Below are positions 17,082-29,500 of a DNA stretch of 64,000 nt, in pieces; position 1 is the stretch's first letter, and every line of letters starts with the position of its first letter. The DNA is from Trypanosoma brucei (lineage: Eukaryota): the NCBI GenBank assembly GCA_000002445.1, contig CP000068.1, positions 896,001 to 960,000 of the forward strand, read 5' to 3'. A model generated the notes under the pieces. That model did no database searches and was not told where the DNA came from. It was given only the letters and a program-made list of their open reading frames with translations. The position numbers and the translations under genes were made by a program.

Positions 17082-17906
17082 AGAACACGATAATAACGAC
17101 AAGATATCCCACTCCGATGTGCAGATTTGCGAGCACGTCTGCCTTGGATATCCGATGTCAATCTGTACTCAAGGCCAAAGACAGCAGAAAACACAGAGAC
17201 TAAATACAGTTCTGCAGTGCAAAATGTGCTCTAAAGGAGGGCAAGAAGGCCAGACAGAGTGTATCGGTACGTACGGTTGATTAGATATTAGTTCTCGAAC
17301 AAACAAAAATCACGCAAAATACAAGTTAAAAAAAATCACTCAGGAAATAATTTTATTGAAAGGGTTGATTTCACAGTATATGGGGAAGGTCTGAAAAGGG
17401 GCCCGGCATGTCCCGCCACAAAAAAAAAAAAGAAAGCTCTTATCACCCCCTCAGCTGGAGTGATTTGGTGTTTCTATCAACCAACGCCCGTAGCATCATT
17501 CCCCTGAGATTTTCCTTCATATCCAGAAGAGAAAAAAAGATTTACGGCGATGAAGTTTGCAGCAGCATTCGATCATGGAGGCAATAGCCCGTTTGACTCA
17601 AAGCTGCACCAGCGCTAAAAGAGTAAGGAACAAACGCAGAAATATAAGATGTGTTTCTTTGTGAATCTAATGTCGCCAGCTCTACCATATTACAGGATGC
17701 CCCGGAGAGAAGTGTGGGTAATATTGCGACAGACAACGCCATATGCACGACAAGAGCACAGTTGGGTGTACTCGACGTGCTCTTCGCACGGGCACCAAGG
17801 AAATAGCGCCGCAAAGGAAAACGTTCTGCGATAGGCAGTAAAAATAATAATAATAATAATCGAAAGCGTGCGCTCGATTTCAAACAATAAAAGGTATAGG
17901 TAACGA

Positions 17907-19667
17907 TCACTTGATGATATTGGACTCCGCATGTATAGCCAATACTCGTTTAACAAGCTTGTCGCACCACGCTACGTGACGCTCCATAAGCACGTCGTCG
18001 TCCGCTATTGCCCTTTCCGTTGACGTAGCATCCCCCAACCCTTGAGAAGACAAACCAGACGACAAAGACGTGGCCCCTCCCGTTTCATCCGTTCGCACCT
18101 CCATCCGCCGGGAAAGACGACTGCGTAGCTCCATCCATGTCTTTGGGGTCCGCAGGCGTGCATAATTAACCACTGCTACATCGTCAAATGGATAACACAG
18201 GGCGTGCGCGACGCTGACAACGCCACGGGAAACACCCTCTGGTGAGTACCCACCCTCTAGTACCGCCACCAAACCGATGGTCCCTTGCGACTGCAGGCAA
18301 AATCGCTTTAGCGCACGAACCACATACGCAAACCCTCCTTCCACAGCCATCCGCCCAAGTGGATCGCCGTGTGCGGCGTCGAAGCCAAGCGAAAGTAGGA
18401 TGATATTAGGGTGGAATTGTTCCAACCTTGGTAAAAACACATCGTCAACGACACGCGCAAAAAGCATATCACTTATAACCTCTTCGCAACGCGCAGGGTC
18501 GGTAGCCGCGGTGTCAACAGCGACGTTGCAAATATTACGATGTTGGCCAACATAGGAGGTCGCACCAGCGGGATCACACGGGTAAAAAGAACCTCGGTCA
18601 TAACGATGAAGAGAGAGGTACAGAAGTTGCGGCTCAACTTCAACAAATGACTGAGTTCCCTCACCATGGTGTACGTCGATGTCAACTATGGCTATGCGAG
18701 GTCGCTCTGGTATATCCCTTTCTTCGGAGGGAACTGAACGGCTACCTCCGACGCCACAATCGTATTTAACGTGCCAGTCTTGCAACAACTGCATTGCGGC
18801 AATCGCAACATTATTCACCAAACAAAAGCCGCTCGGGGTGTCAGCGCTGGCATGGTGTCCCGGAGGGCGAACAAGGCAAAAAGCAAATGCCGGAGAGCCA
18901 CTGAGGGCGCGACGCGCTGCATCAACCACCGCACCGACAGACAACCGAGTCGCTATACTGCTCGTTTTACCGTTGCAATACACATCTGTCTTAAGTGGAG
19001 GGAGCAATGCTGTGCCCTCTTCAATAAAACATCGGTAGCGATGAATATTGTGACACAATGTAACTTCATCTAGCGTTGCTAAACGGGGCGGAATCCATAA
19101 CGGAGTTCCGCTGGGCGCCGCGGACGGCGTCTCGCCTGCTGTTGCACCAGTTCCCACAGGCGCACCTTCACGAGGAGGGGACCTTTCTCCAGAACTTTGC
19201 AGTTCCATAGGCAAAAAATGAGCAGCACGCGGCGCCGAGCGTAGTGCCTCAACAGCGCGCTGCAAACGATAGGGTGTTTCCGGCACACGGTCAACGGGGG
19301 GAACGTGCTCAAGCACTCTAGGATCGTATGCCCATGCAACTGACACGTCCGGTAGAAACAGGTCACTATTATCATTATCCGTCTTGGCAGCATCCAACAT
19401 GGCAGGTCCAGAAACGAACACTTCCATTCCATTTTTTAGACTTCCAAAAAAGGTGATTCCTTGGGCGTCGACGAGACTTTCAACACCTGAAGCTTCCACA
19501 CCTACACGGAGCGCCACTTGATCAACCGGCTCCACCAGCTTTCCACGACGGATAGCAGCGGTTGTGCAGAGTCGTGGGTCCGCTTGGCACCTAACAGTCA
19601 CGTCACCGTCAAGATCCAGCTGGCGCCCATGAGCCCAGGGATTTTTATTCCGTTCCCTCACAGACAT
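17907..19667 (-). CDS. Histone deacetylase (arginase/deacetylase fold), class-II-like; possibly the T. brucei DAC4 orthologue (from memory, unverified)
   Basis: Track ORF starts at a TTG at 19748; the first ATG is at 19667 (MSVRERNK...). Canonical HDAC motifs are present: 'RPPGHHASADTPSGFCLVNNVAIAA', 'IVDIDVHHGEGTQ' and 'LEGGYSPEGVS'. It is the first gene of the minus-strand unit, next to the strand-switch region. Confidence 0.85.
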   Translation of the reverse strand: MSVRERNKNPWAHGRQLDLDGDVTVRCQADPRLCTTAAIRRGKLVEPVDQVALRVGVEASGVESLVDAQGITFFGSLKNGMEVFVSGPAMLDAAKTDNDNSDLFLPDVSVAWAYDPRVLEHVPPVDRVPETPYRLQRAVEALRSAPRAAHFLPMELQSSGERSPPREGAPVGTGATAGETPSAAPSGTPLWIPPRLATLDEVTLCHNIHRYRCFIEEGTALLPPLKTDVYCNGKTSSIATRLSVGAVVDAARRALSGSPAFAFCLVRPPGHHASADTPSGFCLVNNVAIAAMQLLQDWHVKYDCGVGGSRSVPSEERDIPERPRIAIVDIDVHHGEGTQSFVEVEPQLLYLSLHRYDRGSFYPCDPAGATSYVGQHRNICNVAVDTAATDPARCEEVISDMLFARVVDDVFLPRLEQFHPNIILLSLGFDAAHGDPLGRMAVEGGFAYVVRALKRFCLQSQGTIGLVAVLEGGYSPEGVSRGVVSVAHALCYPFDDVAVVNYARLRTPKTWMELRSRLSRRMEVRTDETGGATSLSSGLSSQGLGDATSTERAIADDDVLMERHVAWCDKLVKRVLAIHAESNIIK

Positions 19668-22026
19668 ACGATAGAGTTGACTAAGTAAACACTTATCGAT
19701 ATTTATTACGTCGGATGCAGGTAAACAACGAAAAGATAGCAGACACAACCAAAAAAAAACCTGGGTTTGAAAAATACAATTTCGGACTTCCTCTCCGGAA
19801 CCAAGGCATTTATATATTTAAGGCTCCTCACTCAATCATTCCCCTGTTGTCTAAAAGAAAATTTCTCGAATATGAAATGCATTTGAGAGAGGTTGTTTAC
19901 ACCACAAGAGCACCTCATTGTTACACAGACATATCTGTCACCGAGCCTCAGCTACACCAACACGTTCAACTGTTTGTAAATCACAACTAAAGTCGACTGA
20001 GCATACAGGGGAAGTAATGCCCCACACACAGGAACAAATATATATATTTGCTTCAGTATCTGAAGCGCTAAACATCGCTTTAAAGCTCATTATACAACGC
20101 AGCACACACGGTAGTCATCAAAACACTAATACCAACACACCCGCATCCCCCCCCCCGGAAGCCATAATAAATAATGAACACTGGGTAGAACAATCAAACT
20201 CTCCCACAGTTAACTCCGCCGATGTGTCTATTGGCGCTCCACGGTAGAGCTCTTCCACTATTCGAACGAAGTATTCGTAAGTTAATTCAACGCGACACCA
20301 AATATGTGACTCTCGGGTTGTCCAGCAGCTCTTAGCAAAGGGGTAGTATTTCAGTTACACCTGATCTAACAGCTATTCCTCGGCACCGCGCATAGTTAGA
20401 TAGATAACTTACGTTTTCAAAAGTGCACTGCTAACAACAGACACTTTACCACGTCATTTTCTACAACGCAGCAGTGAATATTAACTTTGTCTTTGGGCGA
20501 TGGCTTTGGGAATAGAGTCATCACTGCCACGCCATCGTGTTTTCCCCCTGTATATAACGCAATTTAACCGTTCGTCTTCAAGTGTCAGACCCTCCTTCGA
20601 GAACAAACTTTTTTAAAGAAAAAGAGGAGAGAGTAAGAAGCACGATATGTATATTGCAGACTACCCGCGAGAGTCAGAATGATATCCGTCTTTATCTTAT
20701 CCTTTACCGTTCCCTTGTTATATATTTTCCCCCCGCGACCCGGCTGTATCTCATATCGCGCAACAGGCAGACCAGAAGATTTTCTTTCAAAAGGCCAAAC
20801 GGTGAAGGAGACAGCGTTTACTACCTTGCCGTATTGCTCCACGAAGTCGTGTTATGAGTTGATTCAACGAGTAGATATCCCACTACCAGGCGCTGTTAAC
20901 AACGCAGCTAAGCAGTTATTTGCCAGGTGGGCGAGTCCAGACACACGAACTTATGAGGAATAGAAAACACCTAGTAGAGAATTGTGCGAGAATAAAAAAA
21001 CGAAACAAAAGAAATGATAAGTGAGACCATCTAACCCTAAACATTAGAAGCAACTTCAGCAAACACTTCAGTCGGACCACGCATTAGCACTCCATTGTTC
21101 ACGATGCCATAACGAAGCTACAAACTAACGTGGAAGGTAAGATTTTTACCCGACACCACTACTAAGTTAGGAGTTTCCATATGTGTCCGCTCAGCCAGTT
21201 ACAAAGTACAAAATAAAACATGACACCTCGCTGATAGAAAGTAAATGCGTCCAAACCACGTTGCCAGGGACTCACATTTAAAATGTTAAGAACACTGAAC
21301 AAAGCCGCTACAACTGTGGCAACAAAAAGAATTGGAATATGCAAAAGAAACAAATGATCGGGGGAAACGCAGCATTTCGCAGAATCACCACTGACGTAGG
21401 GCGTGATCCACCAAGCCGTGCGCACATTCTTTAGCGTTATGATGCACCTACACGACCATCAAAAAGGAACACTGACAAGGAAGCTCCCCGCCCAACCGAC
21501 AAACCCATATTAAATCCCCAGGTAATCGAAACGGATAATATTGAATACCATTACAGGAACCTATAATAATTACTCAATATTCTATATTCAAAGTACCCTT
21601 TTTCCTTTTAAAGGAAAAAGATAGAAACCATAGTTAGGTTACGTGCTTTTCATTGTTGCATCCCGACTTTCTAACGTTGTAGTAACTAAATTCAGCTACA
21701 GAAGGGTACATTAGCACAAAAGTGTCTCTCTGTGGTAGGGCTTCGTGATTTGGTATAGAGCATTATGCCACATGCTAATGTGGCACATTTGGAAACCCCA
21801 TGTTGTCATCTCACCACCAAACAAACTAGTAGAGGTAATGCCACATCGGTGCGTACAAATGATATCAAAAACACCTGTGTGTGGCGTGTAACATCTCATT
21901 CGACCCTTATAAAGCCTATTACCAACTATGCTTTGTTGACAATAAGAACGTCGTATTTCCCAATATATAAACGTGAACACATAACTAGCATTTGAATATG
22001 CAAAGAGGAATGGGGAAAATCCACCT

Positions 22027-22051
22027 CATATATATATATATATATATATAT
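22027..22051. repeat. (AT)12 microsatellite
   Basis: 'atatatatatatatatatatatata' followed by T6. Confidence 0.95.
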
Positions 22052-22702
22052 TTTTTCAAAAAAGGGAGAGCACATACGTCTATGTACGACAACAGAGGCA
22101 TGCAAATGTCTGGCTCTTCAAATAATGTACGATAGAACAATGAAGGGACAACAAGGGTAGAAAAAGGCATATCAGCACACCAATGTGCGTATATCAAGCA
22201 TAGGAACTTCAGATAGATTACAAAAAGTTTTTAAAAAAGCACTTACCTGTCGATGGCCATAGTGAAATGACTTTTTATTTACTATACAGGAGTGCACACA
22301 GAATATGGAAAACATAGACGAACAGTCCCGACGGACAAAATATTTTAAGATGGCAAAGAAAAACAAAGGCGTGTCAACAACGGGTAGATGAAATAATGAC
22401 ATCAATGGCCATGGTAGCGACGGTGATGACGACAATAATGGTAGCGAGGAATTTAATACTACAAATATCCCAACGGTAGAAATAATTACGACATGTACAC
22501 GGGCAGTTGTGAGAGGGTTCCAATGCCGGGGTTAGTCAGGTGCGGAACCGCTGCCAAACATTCCTTATACGCAGATAAGCAGCTACCAGAACTATGTTGC
22601 AACTAGAACCTTATCATAGAAAGGGAGAAATATAAGTGATAAGCCTCTTCTGAATCGGTTGGCAAAAAAAAACAATAATGATGCATACCGTTGTCGCCTC
22701 CC

Positions 22703-22704
<2 letters not shown>

Positions 22705-22740
<36 letters not shown>
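22705..22740. repeat. (CA)18 dinucleotide microsatellite
   Basis: 'cacacacacacacacacacacacacacacacacaca' inside the strand-switch region. Confidence 0.95.
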
Positions 22741-22743
<3 letters not shown>

Positions 22744-24799
22744 CATAAAGATAGAGAATCGGTGGCATCAACTGACAACCACTGTCACGCTGACACCAAA
22801 GGTAAAGTTCACTCAAGAAATACCTGAGTCCTATGTGCGATTGGTCAACGAAAGTTCACACAAATTTTGCAAACTTGTCATTATCCTACAGAGGACCCTG
22901 TGCGAAAAAAAAAAGTCTCCTCCATTCAATGGACTGCGAAGCTAATAACAGGAAGTAAAGAAGCTGACATGGCCGAGCCGGCAATATACTCACACCCTCT
23001 CAGATAGCGGTTAGAAATCCATAAAGAGAAGTCAGATTCCCGTTGCCTGGTGGCGGTCACACATCTTCGCAACGGCGTGACCCGAGGCGGTGGTGAACTT
23101 TGGAAATTTTTAGCAAAAACATTCCACATATGTTCCTCTTCAGCAGGACATCGCCCTTTAGAGAGGTATTAAAAAGCCATGTACACGCATATGTGCGCAT
23201 TTTGCTGTCGAAAAACAACAGATACCACAAACCCGCATACACATATAAGAGCACAACGTGACAGGGGGGGGGAACGCCTCTACCTACTCAGAAAATTTGG
23301 GTGACCTCTCATCTCTAGTAAGTGAAGACCGGTGACTTGAGCGTTCGGACGTTCTTTGCAATAGAAAGAAACAGCCGTAGCCCGTAAAGATCATAAAGGA
23401 ACATATCGCTAACCAGCTACTGCGGAGAGATGCATACCTTCACATTCCACCATATGCAATCACAAATGCTCCTCCTTCACCTGTTAAACAGATTACCGTT
23501 CCGCAAATAGGTCCCCAGAATGCCGGTAACTTCGCTTCATGCTGATCTCAGTAAGCGTTGGCATCTCCCCCTCTCACGGGCCGCCGCAAAAGAGACCGAC
23601 CCGAGAGGAAATAGCTGCAAAGGAATAACAGAGCCCTCAGTATTACTGCAAAATACACGTCGGTTTTTGTTGTTTTTGTTGTTGTTTTAAAAAATATATA
23701 TCGTTACGAACTACTCTGCTCCGATACGTTGGACCCAGTCGGTCTCGAATGGAGGTGATGTGTCCAATTTCGGCCAAAACGGTATAGGACTGCTGAGAGT
23801 GTCAAGTACTGCTATTGAGGGAAAGACAACCGGTACAAACGCGGCAGTCCCAATAAGCTTACCACACCACGACATCAGCCCAGTTCCACAAAATGTTCAC
23901 AATGTAAAAAAAAATGCTAAGTTGAGCGGAGGCTGCGGGACGCCACTCACATGAGCTTATCCGGCCCCGCGTTGTCTTGTTTGGGACCCTCATACTTCAG
24001 ACAGTGATGCAAACGAAGTAATTATGCGTTGCCATGCCAGGAATGGCACGTGACCCCACGGCTCAGGAAATACCGGCCGGTGTCAGAAAGCGGGGCGGCC
24101 CCAGGTGTTAGATCCCACATGGAACGCGAAACAACACAAAAACTAGTCGGTGATCGGTCCGGCATGATGGTCGATGTCGTTGCCACCCATCCGATGGCAA
24201 AATATTATGAGTTTATGTCAGCGGTCGCTCTTTTCGTGGGGTGAAGGATGCTAATCATACTTTCAAAAACGGTGCGCAGTAGAAGTCCGAAAATGATCCA
24301 GTGAGTCGTCAAATGGCGGGAAAAAAGCGGTGGAGGACACGTGCACCCCAACACGCTGCGATCCAACGAAATCCACTCCCGGAAGGAAGAAAATTTGACC
24401 CCCCGTACCACACACGCACACTCTGATATCGGGTACCGAACCGCCACAAATATAATATGTGTCCAAGAGGTATTCCCGATGGGATTGCAGATTAAGTACC
24501 CATGCGACTGATAGCAATGGCCGCACATTGCACAGCTGTTTAAAAAAAAAAAATTAAAAAAACAGGACGCTTACGACATTCAACCGATAAATACAGGGAG
24601 GAACAGTGCCAAATTGTGCAACATTCGCTTACAACTCACAAGTACTATCGCGTTCAACTCTTCTGGTAGATAACCATGCGCGTGAAAAGCTGCTTTGGCA
24701 AAAAAAAAAAAAGGCATAAGTGCATGGAACGTGATGGCGAAAAACACTCTGCCGTGCCACCGACGGAGGTGCCGTCTGCCTGGAAAGCAACCATCAACG

Positions 24800-27340
24800 T
24801 GTTTCAGTCAGCTGAACGTATGACTTAGACATGGGGGAGGGGCAGCAAAAAACTGTTGCAGATAAGGGCTAGTGACCCACGATGTTTGCTGAAGTCATCC
24901 ATCCCCGAGCCGCAGTACGGAGAAGGGGTGGGGAAGAGGAATCGTGGCATCGCGATGCCGCACGGAGTAAGGAACGAACCTAACGCTGTCATGATGCCAT
25001 CTTTTCTCACAGCGCGGGCTGGTACGGCTAGTAGGGTGACAGTGTGCATGTCCTTCAGATGGATTCGAGTGTTTGCAAACAGAAATCACGGAAATACCTA
25101 GCAAATATCCAGGTAGTGCGCCCCAAATTAGGGCGCATAACTCAAGTTTTGGGAATTCAGGCTGGAGGGAGGGTGCCGATTCTCATCATAATGGTGTCCA
25201 CATGCTGTGGTACGTTGCCCTTGCTCGACTCTGGCAGGAAAGGTTGGCGGGCCGGTTCTTTACTCAACTATGTCGAACGTGAAGCGGTGTTCCACACCCT
25301 CTGATAATTTATTTGGCTTGGAAGACGGTGCGTCGGCTTCGCACATGTAAGTTTGGTGTAAAGAGATAGGGGCTCTCCCAGTCGAGTGAGAATGTAGGGT
25401 GATGCCTTCTCCCCCGTCTAACCCCATTGTTCGGCGGCAGTGCCGTTCATTCCCCCGTCACAGACCCTTTCGGTGGTGTTAGCGGCTCGAAGGGCGGAAC
25501 GGGAGGCCGCTCCCTCTGTCGGTTACACTTGTCGCCGAATAACGAAGTGCCAGCCTCGGTTGCTCGATTTGCTGTGAGGTCGAGGTGCCGGGTGTTGTGC
25601 CGTTGCTGTTATTTCTTTGACCCAGTTGGGGAGTAATGCCGTTTGAAGATGCACGGTTGAACTTTCGGTGCTCGTGCGTGAGCCGGAACTTGAGAGGAGT
25701 GAGTTTGACCGGACCGCCTTCATTGTCCGTGCATTTAGTGCTGCTGGTGCTTTTGGCAGTGCGATCTGTTGAGATGGGCCGTTCGTAGAGCCCTTTGCGC
25801 TGAATGAATATTGGATCTGAGATGTTACCTCTAAACTCTCGTGGCATTGTCTCTCCCACACAGTTTTAACGTGAGTTTAATGATAGCACTTGGGCATATT
25901 AAAGGAAGTAATGGGAGAGATCGTCACTGCTTGTTGATAGCGGTCAATCATTTAAACCGGTAAAAACTTGACAGGAGCAGTGAAGGGTGTCGAAAAAGGG
26001 ATGATATGTCTCGCTGGCGAAGGTGTCATCTCTGTGTAAGTAGCTCAACCACCGATCGTGAGAAATGAACTTCATCCATTTGCTTTTCGTGTGATAACAA
26101 CGGGACTAAGCACCGCTTTAGCTCTGCTGACTGCTGTCTATGCATTCAAACTCCGTCAGACGATATCGAGAAGGAACCCGAGATGATTTCCCCTAAGGGA
26201 CGTTTCCTTCATAAATTTTAAAGAGGGTTCGTGTAAATCTAGGTGGTGAAGCAACAATATGACTGTGGTTTGTGTGACCAGTGCCCTTTCGCAGCGTTCT
26301 CGACTGTCAGGAAACTGTAACATATGGTCGGGACTTCTCATGGTTAAATATTTAGATTCAGATTTTAGTTGCTGATATTGGTGTTGCTTCAGATAGCGTG
26401 GAAGGAAATCCCACCGACAATCGTTCGTAAACCCTACCAACAAGTGCGTCGCAGGTATTAAGAGTTGCAATAAATAAATAAATAATTGTCTATCGAACGT
26501 AAAATCTAGTGGGTGACAGTATCAATCACTCGACGTAGCGAGATACCGCGAGGAAGTGTCTTTCGAGATGTAAAAGATAGCATTACAAAGCGGTTGGATA
26601 AGTGTTGCGCACCCTTTGACAGCTGGGTCGCAGTTCTTTCAATTAAAAAAAAATGAGCGGTATTATTTTCGCGTGTTTTGTTGGGTTGCTGCATGACCTA
26701 TGTACAGGTGCTTTAATCTTTACCATTTCTGCCACACCACACACGGCTATGAGCAGCCACCTGTAGAACCTCGGTGAACCGCTCTGTCCTTCTGTTAAGG
26801 ATAAAATGGGACACGGGATAATGAGGAAGTACTATTTAAATATGTCACTGACCTGATGTTTCCTCTACCAGACGTAGTCACTGAGGTGATTTACCCTTTG
26901 CGCAATTAGTTGCGGGGTTAACGCAAATTTTATTTGGGGTGTTGACAAGATTATTGTGTCCTTAAATATGTATTTGTTTATGGATTTATCATGAGTGAAT
27001 GCTCCGTGGCGTCCGGCTCTTGGTATAGTGTTTATTATGGAAAAGCTCGCGGTTGTTGTTCCTGGTTTCGTGTGCGGTATCATACTTTTTTTTTGTTCAC
27101 ACAGCAGTAGGCAGTGCTGGAGCTCGCTGGCGATTAAAAAAATTTTTTCACTGCTTTAATATGTTCAGAGTGTTTGTAAGGCCTGTGTTTTGCCTACTCG
27201 CTGATTCCTCAGAGGTGAAGGTGCTGGGAGGTGCTGTTTCTTCTTCCACTGCTATTATCGCATCTTGACTCGTGTTTTACTGTTTGTTCCTTAGAACTAG
27301 TAGCTCGCAGGAGCGTACCTCACCACCCGCATTATACCCG
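24800..27340 (+). promoter_or_regulatory. GT-rich block upstream of the first plus-strand gene; candidate GT-rich Pol II promoter / H2A.Z-positioning element
   Basis: Runs such as 'gttgctgttatttctttg', 'ggtgctgctggtgcttttgg', 'gtgtttgtaaggcctgtgttttgcc' and 'tgttttactgtttgttcc' are visible. Established knowledge: GT-rich elements drive initiation in T. brucei TSS regions. Confidence 0.4.
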
Positions 27341-27346
27341 GGTAAT

Positions 27347-27886
27347 ATGTTAGTCGAACGATCGTACAAAACCTCTTTCCAATATGGACGTGAGGGTGTT
27401 GAGGATGCTACCATTGCGTGTACTATATGTCCATCAATGGAAAAAATCCATATTCGTTTTCCTCGCTCAGTTGATGAAATTAAAAGGTCGATTTCCACCT
27501 ACGTTGCTGTGAATGAAGAGTGCATAAACCTCTATGTGCGGGGATGTGGATGTTTTACCGAGGTTTCTGATGAATCACCGATTGTTGGTGAGTATTACGT
27601 GTTGCTGCGGTTGCGTGCAGGGAAGGGTGGTTTCCGGAAGCAGCTTGAAAAAAAGGGTAGAGCGTTTGCTAGATCTAAGAAGCTGCGGAGCTCGACACGA
27701 CAACAACAAGGAGGCCGATCGGACAAGAATCGCGCCCAACCGATTAAATTGTCGAAGCCTCATTCGGACGATAAGGGTGTTGGTCGAAGAGAGCAGGGGA
27801 ATACTGTTGCTTCCGCAGTTGATATCAGCATCAGGGATGCGGTTTGTTGTGGAGTCAAGCGACTTGTTGAGGGACTAAGTACTTAA
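27347..27886 (+). CDS. Small hypothetical ORF at the very start of the plus-strand unit; it may be spurious
   Basis: Track ORF 27272..27886 starts at a GTG; the first ATG is at 27347 (MLVERSYKTSF...). It has a basic K/R-rich centre. It lies inside a GT-rich composition block, which can create chance ORFs. No recognisable domain. Confidence 0.25.
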   Translation: MLVERSYKTSFQYGREGVEDATIACTICPSMEKIHIRFPRSVDEIKRSISTYVAVNEECINLYVRGCGCFTEVSDESPIVGEYYVLLRLRAGKGGFRKQLEKKGRAFARSKKLRSSTRQQQGGRSDKNRAQPIKLSKPHSDDKGVGRREQGNTVASAVDISIRDAVCCGVKRLVEGLST

Positions 27887-28120
27887 AGTCAGTGAAGTAT
27901 TTATCTTGCGCTCCAGTAATATTGTATTACCTTACGTTACGGTTCTTCTGTGATGCTTCCCCTTAGGGATAATATGTTTTGCGGATCAGCGAACTGTATT
28001 TTGTTTCCAGTTTGCATTTTCTTTGTGAGTAAACATTATTTACTTTCTTCTCTTGTGCTTCATTTTTCTCTTTAAATACATCATGTGTAGCACAGAATAC
28101 TCTTAGTGTTTGTTCATTTC

Positions 28121-29500
28121 ATGTCCAGAAGTGTTCCGTGGCGGAATACTTGCCCTGAGGCAGTAACCGACATACTGAATCAATTACCTTCTTGCCAGCT
28201 TCTACTAGTCAAGCGAGTTGGGCCGACGAGTTTCCTTTTGAGCAAGCGAGACGGGCTGGTCAAGTACAGGACGTCTATCGGTGACCCCCATAGCTGTTCA
28301 TGTGACGCCTCGCGGGAGCAGTGCATACATGTCGTTTTCGTTTTGTGTAAAGTGTTTTTCTTACCGCGGGAGAATCCTTTAGTATGGCAGCGCTCGCTTG
28401 TTGCAGCAGAAATAGACGAAATCCTTAGGTCCGAAAACCGGCTTCGGAATGCCTGGAAGAATGTTGACGACACCCGCAGGGACGTTGCAGTTCCAAGGCC
28501 TATTGAAGAAGGTGATGTGTGCCCAATCTGTTTTGAAGAGTTTGGGAACGATACCTCTCTTGATTACTGTGGAGGAGGTTGCGGGAAATATATACATACT
28601 CGTTGCTTCAAACAATATAAACGGCACAATCTTGTAGGTCCCTTACGCTGCCCTTATTGCCGGAGCCTTTGGACTAATACGGTGGGTGCTACTAGCAAGA
28701 GGTGCAGTGGTTGCAAAAAATATGCGAATGGTTCCTGCTACAAGTGCTTATTTTGTCAAGAGTACTTTCTTTGTTCAGACTGTTTCCACCGTCGAGAAAC
28801 TCATTCGCATCATCCGTTTTCTTTGGTCGGGACGAGAGAAGTGGCCGAAAGACACGAAGGGAACAGTGCTTTACCCATGCCGGTGTCCAGTGAACCCACC
28901 GTTAGCATTCCTGAGGAGCTACATCCTCTCATGTATAGAGAAATAGACCCCGAAGACTACGAAACACTTCTTCGTCTGGACGATCAAAATAGTAAAAGGA
29001 AACTGACAGCAGAGGAGTTTTCAGTGCTTCACAGCGAGTGTTGGAGTTCTGGATTACTTACCGACGAGTGTAACATATGCTTAGATACATTTGATGTCAC
29101 CAGTGGTTGCGTGTGGTTGCCATGCGGTCATTTTTTCCATACATCGTGCGCTCAGAGATGGCTTACTGAGCACGTAGCAGAATGTCCCATCGATCACATC
29201 CCGGTTGTGGTGGACAGAGCCGATGTTCAGTCATTAACAGTGAATTCTTCATCTTCTGCTGCAGTTGCACCTCACATTCTTCGTCCCTCCAGACCTCGGG
29301 CTCGTGTGTTGCCGAGACGTCGACTCAACGTTCCGTATAGTTCAGCAACTGTTGGAGTCGAACCTCCAGCTCGGAGAAATGCCGAGAGACAAAGGGGTTC
29401 TGATGTATCACTTCCTTTTCTGGAGCTCCAAGCAGTGTCACTAGGTGTCGGACGACGTAGAGGGCGGTACAACGAACAATTCTTTTATGGTACTGTCTGA
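28121..29500 (+). CDS. ZSWIM2/MEX-like E3 ubiquitin ligase: SWIM zinc finger, RING, ZZ zinc finger, RING-H2
   Basis: Track ORF starts at a GTG at 28106; the first ATG is at 28121 (MSRSVPWRN...). The N-terminal 'VGPTSFLLSKRDGLVKYRTSIGDPHSCSCDASREQCIHVVFVLCKVFFLPREN' aligns by eye with the SWIM region of human ZSWIM2 ('MGPTGFLLKEEEP..YMDFRVFLGNPHVCNCS..ELCKHICWVLLKKFKLPRN'). RING-1 is 'CPICFEEF...CGGGCGKYIHTRCF...CPYC'. The ZZ finger is 'CSGCKKYANGSCYKCLFCQEYFLCSDCFHRRETHSHH'. RING-2 is 'CNICLDTF...LPCGHFFHTSCAQRWL...CPIDH'. Confidence 0.75.
   Translation: MSRSVPWRNTCPEAVTDILNQLPSCQLLLVKRVGPTSFLLSKRDGLVKYRTSIGDPHSCSCDASREQCIHVVFVLCKVFFLPRENPLVWQRSLVAAEIDEILRSENRLRNAWKNVDDTRRDVAVPRPIEEGDVCPICFEEFGNDTSLDYCGGGCGKYIHTRCFKQYKRHNLVGPLRCPYCRSLWTNTVGATSKRCSGCKKYANGSCYKCLFCQEYFLCSDCFHRRETHSHHPFSLVGTREVAERHEGNSALPMPVSSEPTVSIPEELHPLMYREIDPEDYETLLRLDDQNSKRKLTAEEFSVLHSECWSSGLLTDECNICLDTFDVTSGCVWLPCGHFFHTSCAQRWLTEHVAECPIDHIPVVVDRADVQSLTVNSSSSAAVAPHILRPSRPRARVLPRRRLNVPYSSATVGVEPPARRNAERQRGSDVSLPFLELQAVSLGVGRRRGRYNEQFFYGTV

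What the first reader, a model, noticed from the sequence alone, without database searches (positions are those of the whole stretch)
19668..28120. Divergent strand-switch region of about 8.4 kb: putative bidirectional Pol II transcription start zone
Gene polarity flips from minus (HDAC and genes to its left) to plus (ZSWIM2-like and genes to its right) across an ORF-free gap. The gap is about 10 times longer than ordinary intergenic spacers in this window, which run about 0.7-1 kb. In trypanosomatids such divergent regions are the few sites where Pol II initiates. They are marked by H2A.Z/H2B.V and acetylated H4 rather than by classical promoters. The region also holds the window's densest low-complexity sequence: (AT)12, (CA)18, G9 at about 23263, C10 at about 20151 and T/G-rich runs at about 23640-23690.
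Basis: partly seen in the sequence, partly recalled or inferred. Interest (0 to 1): 0.55.

Follow-up and report, generated by a model that had tools for sequence, protein, structure and literature searches.

The report
Known trypanosome divergent transcription start region
This is an ordinary divergent strand-switch region on Trypanosoma brucei chromosome 5, already listed in 2010 as the shared start of two RNA polymerase II gene arrays; most of the supposedly empty gap is covered by six published non-coding transcripts.

Summary
The window is T. brucei TREU927 chromosome 5, positions 896,001-960,000. The strand flip is real. HDAC is DAC4 (Tb927.5.2900) on the minus strand, and the genes to its right are on the plus strand.

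The gene-free gap is therefore 19668-27346, or 7,679 bp, about 10 times the median spacer.

Kolev et al. 2010 (Table S14) list Tb927.5.2900->2770 (-) and Tb927.5.2910->3090 (+) as a 'Divergent' pair of Pol II units.

The gap is not silent. Table S7 of that paper places six trans-spliced, polyadenylated novel transcripts in it: Tb5.NT.66-70 on the minus strand and NT.71 on the plus strand. All their 5' ends fall just after an AG with a pyrimidine tract upstream.

Only 24260-25863 (1.6 kb) has no listed transcript. The window's G+T strand bias flips inside it, at 24798. Initiation most likely occurs there.

I found no hidden gene, tRNA, Rfam RNA, repeat or retroelement relic.

The right arm also starts at this gene in T. 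cruzi and apparently in T. theileri. The left arm is specific to African trypanosomes.

Verdict: already known, low interest.

The parts
17907..19667 (-). DAC4 (histone deacetylase 4, Tb927.5.2900). It is the first annotated coding gene of the leftward Pol II unit. Its spliced-leader acceptor is at 19691, giving a 24-nt 5' UTR.
   Evidence: Pfam Hist_deacetyl, E=1.3e-57. Exact match to AAZ11403/XP_844962. Gene ID from PMC2941730. SL site chr5:915691; an AG precedes it.
19810..20607 (-). Tb5.NT.66, a trans-spliced and polyadenylated novel transcript of 797 nt. It contains the C10 run, which reads as G10 on the sense strand. Its longest sense ATG-ORF is 50 aa.
   Evidence: Kolev 2010 Table S7, chr5 916607->915810; offset 896000. 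AG and a pyrimidine tract precede the 5' end. ORFs.
20724..20970 (-). Tb5.NT.67, a 246-nt transcript listed among the putative non-coding RNAs (no ORF of 25 aa or more).
   Evidence: Kolev 2010 Tables S7 and S11. An AG precedes position 20970.
21100..21984 (-). Tb5.NT.68, an 884-nt processed transcript. The (AT)12 repeat lies just upstream of its acceptor site.
   Evidence: for coordinates; for the AG at the 5' end; for the repeat.
22054..22649 (-). Tb5.NT.69, a 595-nt processed transcript. Its major SL site is at 22609.
   Evidence: for coordinates; for AGs at both 22649 and 22609.
22701..24259 (-). Tb5.NT.70, a 1,558-nt transcript and the first (most upstream) processed transcript of the leftward unit. 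It contains (CA)18.5, which reads as (TG)n on the sense strand. It also contains G9 and a G/T run at 23662-23688, both on the antisense strand.
   Evidence: for coordinates; for the AG before 24259; for the repeats.
24260..25863 (.). Core of the strand-switch region: 1,604 bp with no listed processed transcript, lying between the two outermost splice acceptors. GC is 51%, against about 44% in the rest of the gap. The window-wide minimum of cumulative G+T excess is at 24798. Two A-runs, A12 at 24542 and A13 at 24700, read as T-runs on the minus strand. This is the inferred site of both divergent Pol II initiation zones.
   Evidence: for the boundaries; for the composition switch; for the homopolymers and strand-specific G/T runs. 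Initiation here is inferred, not measured.
25864..27157 (+). Tb5.NT.71, a 1,293-nt transcript of very low abundance and the first processed transcript of the rightward unit. Its longest sense ORF is 39 aa.
   Evidence: for coordinates; for the AG before 25864; for ORFs.
27347..27886 (+). Tb927.5.2910, a 179-aa SDE2-like spliceosome-associated protein and the first coding gene of the rightward unit. Its SL acceptor is at 27295.
   Evidence: Exact match to AAZ11404. SL site chr5:923295. Mass-spectrometry detection. Profile match to PDB 9if7_LH 'Splicing regulator SDE2-like protein', E=1e-21.
28121..29500 (+).
   Evidence: Pfam zf-RING_2 E=3.2e-15 and ZZ E=8.7e-4. Exact match to AAZ11405.

Best explanation
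The region is the divergent strand-switch region between Tb927.5.2900 (DAC4) and Tb927.5.2910 on T. brucei chromosome 5. Two back-to-back, dispersed, directional Pol II start regions sit here.

Pol II most likely starts within or next to the roughly 1.6-kb core (24260-25863) and runs outward on both strands. The sense strand of each arm is G+T-rich, which fits the published GT-rich promoter elements that give direction and promote H2A.Z deposition.

The primary transcripts are first trans-spliced at 24259 (minus strand) and 25864 (plus strand). Coupled polyadenylation and trans-splicing then cut out five short, apparently non-coding cistrons on the left (Tb5.NT.70 to NT.66) and one on the right (NT.71). 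The first protein genes follow: DAC4 on the left and the SDE2-like Tb927.5.2910 on the right.

Shown here or in published tables: gene polarity, transcript positions, splice-site signals, the composition switch, and the published listing as a divergent Pol II pair. Inferred from genome-wide literature: the exact start points, and H2A.Z/H2B.V/H4K10ac chromatin at this locus.
For: - **Identity.** Exact protein matches to TREU927 chromosome 5. The coordinate offset of 896000 is confirmed by two start codons.
- **Published listing.** Table S14 lists both units as 'Divergent'. 5'-triphosphate reads were enriched at every divergent unit.
- **Transcripts.** Table S7 transcripts NT66-70 (-) and NT71 (+) are described as trans-spliced and polyadenylated.
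- **Splice signals.** All 10 mapped 5' ends fall directly after an AG with a pyrimidine-rich stretch upstream. Spacing from poly(A) site to the next acceptor is 51-137 nt.
- **Composition.** Cumulative G+T excess reaches its minimum for the whole 64-kb window at 24798, inside the core. G/T-only runs of 10 nt or more lie 17:2 on the minus strand left of 24712, and mainly on the plus strand from 25590 up to the first coding gene (5 against 1).
- **Published promoter model.** Coding-strand G/T-rich 10-mers mark start regions and drive directional transcription and H2A.Z deposition (PMC5579346).
- **Typical size.** Divergent strand-switch regions are '5-10 kb' with two opposed core promoters (PMC11796357). 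Start regions are about 10 kb with about 50 H2A.Z nucleosomes (PMC7083915).
- **Nothing else in the gap.** No tRNA. No Rfam match even at E<=1. No repeat family.
- **Independent assembly.** The T. equiperdum assembly is collinear across the gap.
Against: - No locus-specific ChIP-seq, nascent-RNA or 5'-triphosphate track could be read. Placing initiation in 24260-25863 rests on the absence of listed processed transcripts and on the composition switch.
- One strong G/T run (23662-23688) lies on the plus strand about 1.1 kb left of the switch, antisense to NT70. The two start zones could therefore overlap rather than sit neatly back to back.
They are not obviously promoter elements.
- In the SL-site table (file 28, stored truncated), only NT66, NT67 and NT69 appear between the two coding genes. 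Splicing of NT68, NT70 and NT71 rests on Table S7 and on the AG/pyrimidine context.
Confidence: 0.9

Rival explanations
1. The gap hides one or more unannotated or decayed protein-coding genes, so the real intergenic distance is ordinary.
For:
- The novel transcripts carry sense ATG-ORFs of up to 76 aa.
- In T. theileri, T. grayi and T. cruzi, several genes lie upstream of DAC4 on the same strand.
Against: - The longest ORF in 19668-27346 is 126 aa. It lies in the core and has no Pfam hit.
- GenBank protein accessions for DAC4 and Tb927.5.2910 are consecutive.
- No gene is called in the gap in T. equiperdum.
- tblastn of all upstream genes from the other species finds nothing in the window outside known genes.
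- None of the 177 stop-to-stop segments of the gap has a significant match in seven orthologous loci; the best E-value is 0.005.
- NT66-71 are absent from Kolev's lists of conserved or peptide-supported novel ORFs, and NT67 is listed as non-coding.
Confidence: 0.04
2. The long gap is mainly a scar of chromosome rearrangement, that is a synteny breakpoint filled with junk or a decayed retroelement. Its length has nothing to do with promoter function.
For: - DAC4 is internal to a gene array in T. theileri, T. grayi and T. cruzi but first in T. brucei.
- In T. cruzi, the arm opposite the Tb927.5.2910 orthologue is an L1Tc-type retroelement plus a GP63 gene.
- T. theileri has a reverse-transcriptase fragment upstream of its orthologue.
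- The gap has no sequence conservation beyond the Trypanozoon subgenus.
- The gap accumulates differences from T. equiperdum about 4 times faster than its flanks.
Against: - This is compatible with, not opposed to, the start-region reading. The plus-strand array starts at the same gene in T. cruzi and apparently in T. theileri.
- tblastn with reverse-transcriptase and endonuclease proteins finds no relic in the gap.
- There are no repeats.
- A length of 7.7 kb is within the 5-10 kb stated as normal for T. brucei divergent strand-switch regions.
Confidence: 0.35
3. The region also, or instead, serves as an ORC1/CDC6 binding site and early replication origin.
For: In T. brucei, ORC1/CDC6 sites sit at the boundaries of transcription units, and 19 of 42 mapped early origins centre on divergent strand-switch regions (PMC3607257).
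Against: - No locus-specific entry for chr5 around 0.92 Mb was found in the text or the held supplements.
- About 80% of ORC1/CDC6 sites are not active origins.
- No sequence signature exists to test.
Confidence: 0.25
4. The boundary is defined by a Pol III gene, snRNA, rRNA or centromeric repeat, as at some other T. brucei unit boundaries.
For: Kolev's Table S14 has such classes: 'next to tRNA', 'next to snRNA', 'next to rRNA'.
Against: - There are no tRNAs in the whole window.
- There is no Rfam match at gathering score, or at E<=1 within the gap.
- There are no tandem arrays beyond two dinucleotide repeats.
- Table S14 types this pair 'Divergent'.
Confidence: 0.01

Closest known systems
Divergent strand-switch regions (dTSRs) of Trypanosoma brucei, as described by Siegel 2009, Kolev 2010 and Wedel 2017
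   Same: - Two gene arrays diverge from a gene-free region of 5-10 kb.
- The sense strand of each arm is G+T-rich.
- The first trans-splice acceptors face outward.
- Short, low-abundance processed transcripts precede the first coding gene.
- The locus is itself an entry in the published list.
   Different: Nothing essential differs. The particulars are five tandem non-coding cistrons on one arm against one on the other, and a stray plus-strand G/T run at 23662-23688 on the 'wrong' side of the switch.
The Leishmania major chromosome 1 strand-switch region and the divergent strand-switch regions of T. cruzi marked by H2B.V (PMC8893665)
   Same: Bidirectional Pol II initiation between divergent gene arrays, without a classical promoter, and with marked chromatin.
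   Different: - The L. major chr1 region is much shorter, under 1 kb by my own recollection.
- In T. cruzi, the orthologous start of the rightward array faces a retroelement and a GP63 gene, not DAC4.
Dispersed (CpG-island-like) bidirectional promoters of metazoa
   Same: - Broad initiation zones.
- H2A.Z-flanked open chromatin.
- Intrinsic bidirectionality.
- No TATA-type motif. Wedel 2017 draws this comparison.
   Different: Here each promoter drives a gene array of tens of genes that is processed by trans-splicing. There is no gene-specific regulation.

Membership tests
Trypanosomatid divergent strand-switch region / Pol II transcription start region | Coding genes on opposite strands point away from each other across the region. 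| tested here: met
   The ORF map. DAC4 is on the minus strand and Tb927.5.2910, the RING gene and further genes are on the plus strand.
Trypanosomatid divergent strand-switch region / Pol II transcription start region | Experimentally catalogued as the head of two Pol II units. | tested here: met
   Kolev 2010 Table S14 has rows Tb927.5.2900->2770 (-) and Tb927.5.2910->3090 (+), both 'Divergent'.
Trypanosomatid divergent strand-switch region / Pol II transcription start region | Processed transcripts and splice acceptors are oriented outward from an inner core, with none reading across it. | tested here: met
   NT66-70 lie on the minus strand up to 24259 and NT71 on the plus strand from 25864. 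All 10 5' ends follow an AG.
Trypanosomatid divergent strand-switch region / Pol II transcription start region | The strand-composition switch, with G+T-rich sense strands, coincides with the region. | tested here: met
   The window-wide minimum of cumulative G+T excess is at 24798. Strand-specific G/T runs are shown.
Trypanosomatid divergent strand-switch region / Pol II transcription start region | Enrichment of H2A.Z/H2B.V, H4K10ac and Pol II at the locus. | not testable with these tools
   Only genome-wide statements could be read, for example that all start sites carry the same chromatin (PMC7083915). No track for chr5:916-923 kb was available.
Trypanosomatid divergent strand-switch region / Pol II transcription start region | 5'-triphosphate (primary) RNA ends on both strands. 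| not testable with these tools
   Kolev 2010 states enrichment 'at every divergent transcription unit' and refers to Table S14. Per-locus read counts are not held.
Unit boundary defined by Pol III or structural RNA genes | A tRNA, snRNA, rRNA or SL RNA gene at the boundary. | tested here: not met
   ARAGORN finds no genes. Rfam finds no matches at gathering score, or at E<=1 in the gap.
Retroelement-bearing strand-switch region or synteny breakpoint | Reverse-transcriptase or endonuclease coding remnants or repeats in the region. | tested here: not met
   tblastn with T. cruzi and T. theileri reverse-transcriptase and endonuclease proteins gives no hit in the gap. No repeat families are present. 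Synteny is nevertheless broken on the left arm.
Replication origin / ORC1-CDC6 site | An ORC1/CDC6 ChIP peak or an MFA-seq peak at the locus. | not tested
   No locus-level data were found in PMC3607257 or its held supplements.

The most novel reading that the evidence does not exclude
The left arm of this strand-switch region may be a recent invention of African trypanosomes. Its five tandem spliced non-coding cistrons (Tb5.NT.66-70) have no counterpart in T. congolense, T. cruzi, T. grayi or T. theileri. It was joined to an ancient, conserved start site upstream of the SDE2-like gene. On this reading the non-coding cistrons, or the stray plus-strand G/T element at 23662-23688, would have a function of their own. 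Examples are a run-in or buffer zone for Pol II, regulatory long non-coding RNAs, or overlapping antisense initiation. The alternative is that they are by-products of the processing signals.
Probability: 0.1. Interest if true: 0.4.

Novelty: already known. Interest (0 to 1): 0.1.

Why it matters
It matters little beyond confirming that a tool-free reader can spot a trypanosome Pol II start region from gene polarity alone. This exact locus has been in a published list of T. brucei Pol II units since 2010, and its class has been studied in detail since then.

The analysis does add three things:
- a corrected right border;
- a narrowing of the likely initiation zone to about 1.6 kb, with the composition switch at window position 24798 (chr5:920,798);
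- the observation that the rightward array starts at the same gene in T. cruzi and apparently in T. theileri, while the leftward partner is specific to African trypanosomes.

Tried and rejected
- **Pfam scan of the largest core ORF** (126 aa): no family.
- **Pfam at E<=10 for Tb927.5.2910:** nothing. A profile search against PDB sequences was needed to show it is SDE2-like.
- **Looking for the locus in supplements.** Wedel 2017 gave no hits. Tiengwe 2012 had no entry near chr5:0.92 Mb.
- **Papers not held.** Siegel 2009 (two PMC ids) and Cordon-Obras 2022 could not be read, so the 2022 core-promoter motif could not be tested.
- **T. congolense orthologue of Tb927.5.2910:** no contig on record. 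The T. vivax contig ends 766 bp upstream of the orthologue. The state of this region in the nearest outgroups therefore stays open.
- **Divergence from T. equiperdum.** My first figures were 0.76% for the gap and 1.18% for the core. They were inflated by two misaligned blocks next to A-runs, at 23916-23934 and 24713-24730. Counted as events, there are about 22 in 7.7 kb, clustered at 22195-22814. I dropped the claim that the core diverges fastest.
- **The bacterial promoter/terminator scanner** was not used because it does not apply to this organism.
Full report
**Identity of the window**

Exact-sequence look-ups of four window proteins return T. brucei brucei TREU927 entries on a 1,608,198-bp contig:
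- AAZ11403: histone deacetylase, DAC4.
- AAZ11404: 'hypothetical protein, conserved', 179 aa.
- AAZ11405: RING protein.
- AAZ11406.

DAC4 is Tb927.5.2900 (PMC2941730).

Kolev et al. 2010 give the spliced-leader site of Tb927.5.2900 at chr5:915,691 with a 24-nt UTR. They give that of Tb927.5.2910 at 923,295 with a 52-nt UTR. Both place the start codons at window positions 19667 and 27347. Window coordinate therefore equals chr5 (v4) coordinate minus 896,000.

**Check of the observation**

The polarity flip is real.
- (AT)12 at 22028-22051
- (CA)18.5 at 22705-22741
- C10 at 20147-20156
- G9 at 23264-23272
- a 27-nt G/T-only run at 23662-23688

That ORF is Tb927.5.2910, a protein seen by mass spectrometry in PRC5 and SmD1 spliceosome purifications (PMC8682746).

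The corrected gap is 19668-27346, or 7,679 bp. That is 10.1 times the median (762 bp) and 4 times the largest (1,942 bp) of the 20 other ORF-to-ORF spacers.

Homopolymers of 8 nt or more are about 2.3 times denser in the gap than in the gene arrays.

**What is published for this exact locus**

Table S14 of Kolev et al. 2010 ('Putative Pol II transcription units') lists two units, both typed 'Divergent':
- Tb927.5.2900 -> Tb927.5.2770 (-)
- Tb927.5.2910 -> Tb927.5.3090 (+)

[quoted passage not shown] It adds that sense and antisense reads occur at all such sites.

Table S7 of the same paper places six 'trans-spliced and polyadenylated' novel transcripts inside the gap. In window coordinates:

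| Transcript | Window coordinates | Strand |
|---|---|---|
| NT66 | 19810-20607 | - |
| NT67 | 20724-20970 | - |
| NT68 | 21100-21984 | - |
| NT69 | 22054-22649 | - |
| NT70 | 22701-24259 | - |
| NT71 | 25864-27157 | + |

NT67 is also listed among the putative non-coding RNAs.

**Sequence tests of that map**

- All ten reported 5' ends fall immediately after an AG, with a pyrimidine-rich stretch upstream. These are the six transcripts, the major NT69 site, and the three coding genes. Each AG has roughly a 1-in-16 chance of occurring by accident. Ten out of ten therefore confirms both the coordinate offset and that these are trans-splice acceptors.
- The distance from each poly(A) site to the next acceptor downstream is 51-137 nt. 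I recognise this as the normal coupling distance in trypanosomes (my own knowledge).
- The gap is therefore tiled by processed RNAs except for 24260-25863 (1,604 bp).

**Composition**

- The cumulative excess of G+T over A+C on the plus strand reaches its minimum for the entire 64-kb window at 24798, inside that core.
- Plus-strand G+T fraction is 0.44 for 19668-24259, which makes the minus, sense strand 0.56. It is 0.55 for 25864-27346.
- G/T-only runs of 10 nt or more lie 17 on the minus strand against 2 on the plus strand left of 24712. From 25590 up to the first coding gene they lie mainly on the plus strand, 5 against 1.
- This matches Wedel et al. 2017. They found that 10-mers enriched on the coding strand of start regions are long G/T stretches, and that synthetic GT-rich elements drive orientation-dependent transcription and H2A.Z deposition.
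- The exception is the plus-strand run at 23662-23688, antisense to NT70.
- The core is richer in GC (51%) than the rest of the gap (about 44%). It contains A12 and A13 runs at 24542 and 24700.

**Search for anything else in the gap**

- No tRNA.
- No Rfam family at gathering score over the window, or at E<=1 over the gap.
- No direct-repeat families and only weak inverted repeats.
- The longest ORF is 126 aa and has no Pfam match.
- The longest sense ATG-ORFs in the novel transcripts are 39-76 aa.
- None of the 177 stop-to-stop segments of the gap has a significant tblastn match in orthologous loci from T. congolense, T. cruzi, T. grayi, T. theileri or T. melophagium.
- Retroelement proteins from those loci find nothing in the gap.
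- An independent T. equiperdum assembly is collinear across the whole gap, so the gap is not an assembly artefact.

**Evolutionary context**

The left arm differs between lineages.
- In T. theileri, T. grayi and T. cruzi, the DAC4 orthologue is internal to a gene array. Homologous genes lie upstream of it on the same strand.
- Those upstream genes have no match in the window.
- In T. theileri, DAC4 and the Tb927.5.2910 orthologue lie about 27 kb apart on the same strand of one contig.

The right arm is conserved.
- In T. cruzi, the Tb927.5.2910 orthologue is again the first gene of a plus-strand array with the same gene order: RING, a 370-aa protein, STI1, the DM10 protein, PRPP synthetase.
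- There it faces an L1Tc-like retroelement and a GP63 gene.
- In T. theileri and T. melophagium, several kilobases holding only small gene calls and a reverse-transcriptase fragment precede it.

The rightward start site therefore looks old, and its leftward partner looks specific to African trypanosomes. T. congolense shares the DAC4-AAA adjacency with T. brucei. Its contig is too short to show the other arm.

**Divergence from T. equiperdum OVI**

- Raw mismatch counts of 0.76% in the gap are inflated by two misaligned blocks next to A-runs.
- Counted as events, there are about 22 in 7.7 kb.
- This compares with 2 in 2.4 kb of ordinary spacers and about 5 in 8.8 kb of coding sequence.
- 14 of the events fall within 22195-22814, around NT69 and the CA repeat.

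**Mechanism**

- The best reading is two opposed dispersed Pol II promoters in or next to 24260-25863.
- Direction would be set by coding-strand G/T richness.
- The promoters would be embedded in H2A.Z/H2B.V/acetyl-H4 chromatin.
- PMC7083915 describes start regions of about 10 kb with about 50 H2A.Z nucleosomes at every start region.
- PMC11796357 describes divergent strand-switch regions as 5-10 kb holding two oppositely oriented core promoters.
- The stretch of each primary transcript upstream of the first acceptor is discarded. I infer this from Kolev's SL-less polyadenylated RNAs near start sites.
- The start points and the chromatin at this locus are inferred, not measured here.

**Verdict**

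The feature is an already catalogued, typical member of a well-studied class. Interest is low.

Noticed in passing
window 27347-27886 (+): Tb927.5.2910 was reported in 2021 as a spliceosome-associated protein with no identifiable homologues (PMC8682746). A 4-sequence profile matches PDB chain 9if7_LH, 'Splicing regulator SDE2-like protein', at E=1e-21, and weakly matches human SDE2 (8c6j_z) at E=0.11. It has a ubiquitin-like end, 'LLRLRGG|KGGFRKQLEKKGR', in T. congolense, T. theileri and T. melophagium. The T. brucei protein (sequence identical in T. equiperdum) reads 'LRLRAGKGG', an alanine at the putative Gly-Gly processing site.
   Followed up: partly
window 17103-17906; loci L005 12370-13644, L006 12040-13293, L007 12128-13333: T. 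theileri, T. cruzi and T. grayi have a conserved gene of about 400-424 aa between DAC4 and the large AAA_5 ATPase gene. It is absent from the window. T. brucei has only an 804-bp spacer there. T. congolense has DAC4 followed by the ATPase gene after about 1.4 kb, with no gene called between them. This points to loss or relocation in African trypanosomes.
   Followed up: partly
L003 and L004 (T. melophagium contig JAJSEB010000043.1, about 372-409 kb): The Tb927.5.2910 / RING / 370-aa / STI1 block is present twice in opposite orientation about 15 kb apart. This would be an inverted duplication forming a divergent strand switch, though it could also be an assembly artefact.
   Followed up: no
window 22195-22814: 14 single-base differences between TREU927 and T. 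equiperdum OVI cluster within 620 bp (about 2.3%), around Tb5.NT.69 and the (CA)n repeat. In addition, 27 indel columns fall in the 500-bp bin 22501-23000, which holds the CA repeat. Flanking genes and spacers differ by about 0.1% or less.
   Followed up: partly
window 23662-23688 (+): A 27-nt G/T-only run (GGTTTTTGTTGTTTTTGTTGTTGTTTT) sits on the plus strand, inside and antisense to Tb5.NT.70 and about 1.1 kb left of the composition switch. It is the longest of only two plus-strand G/T runs of 10 nt or more between 19668 and 25863. It could mark antisense or overlapping initiation.
   Followed up: no
L009/L010 4170-8321 (-) and 1752-3386 (-): In T. cruzi, the arm opposite the conserved rightward array consists of a non-LTR retroelement (RVT_1 plus an Exo_endo_phos endonuclease) and a GP63 (Peptidase_M8) gene. 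The orthologous start site there borders the species-specific surface-gene compartment.
   Followed up: no
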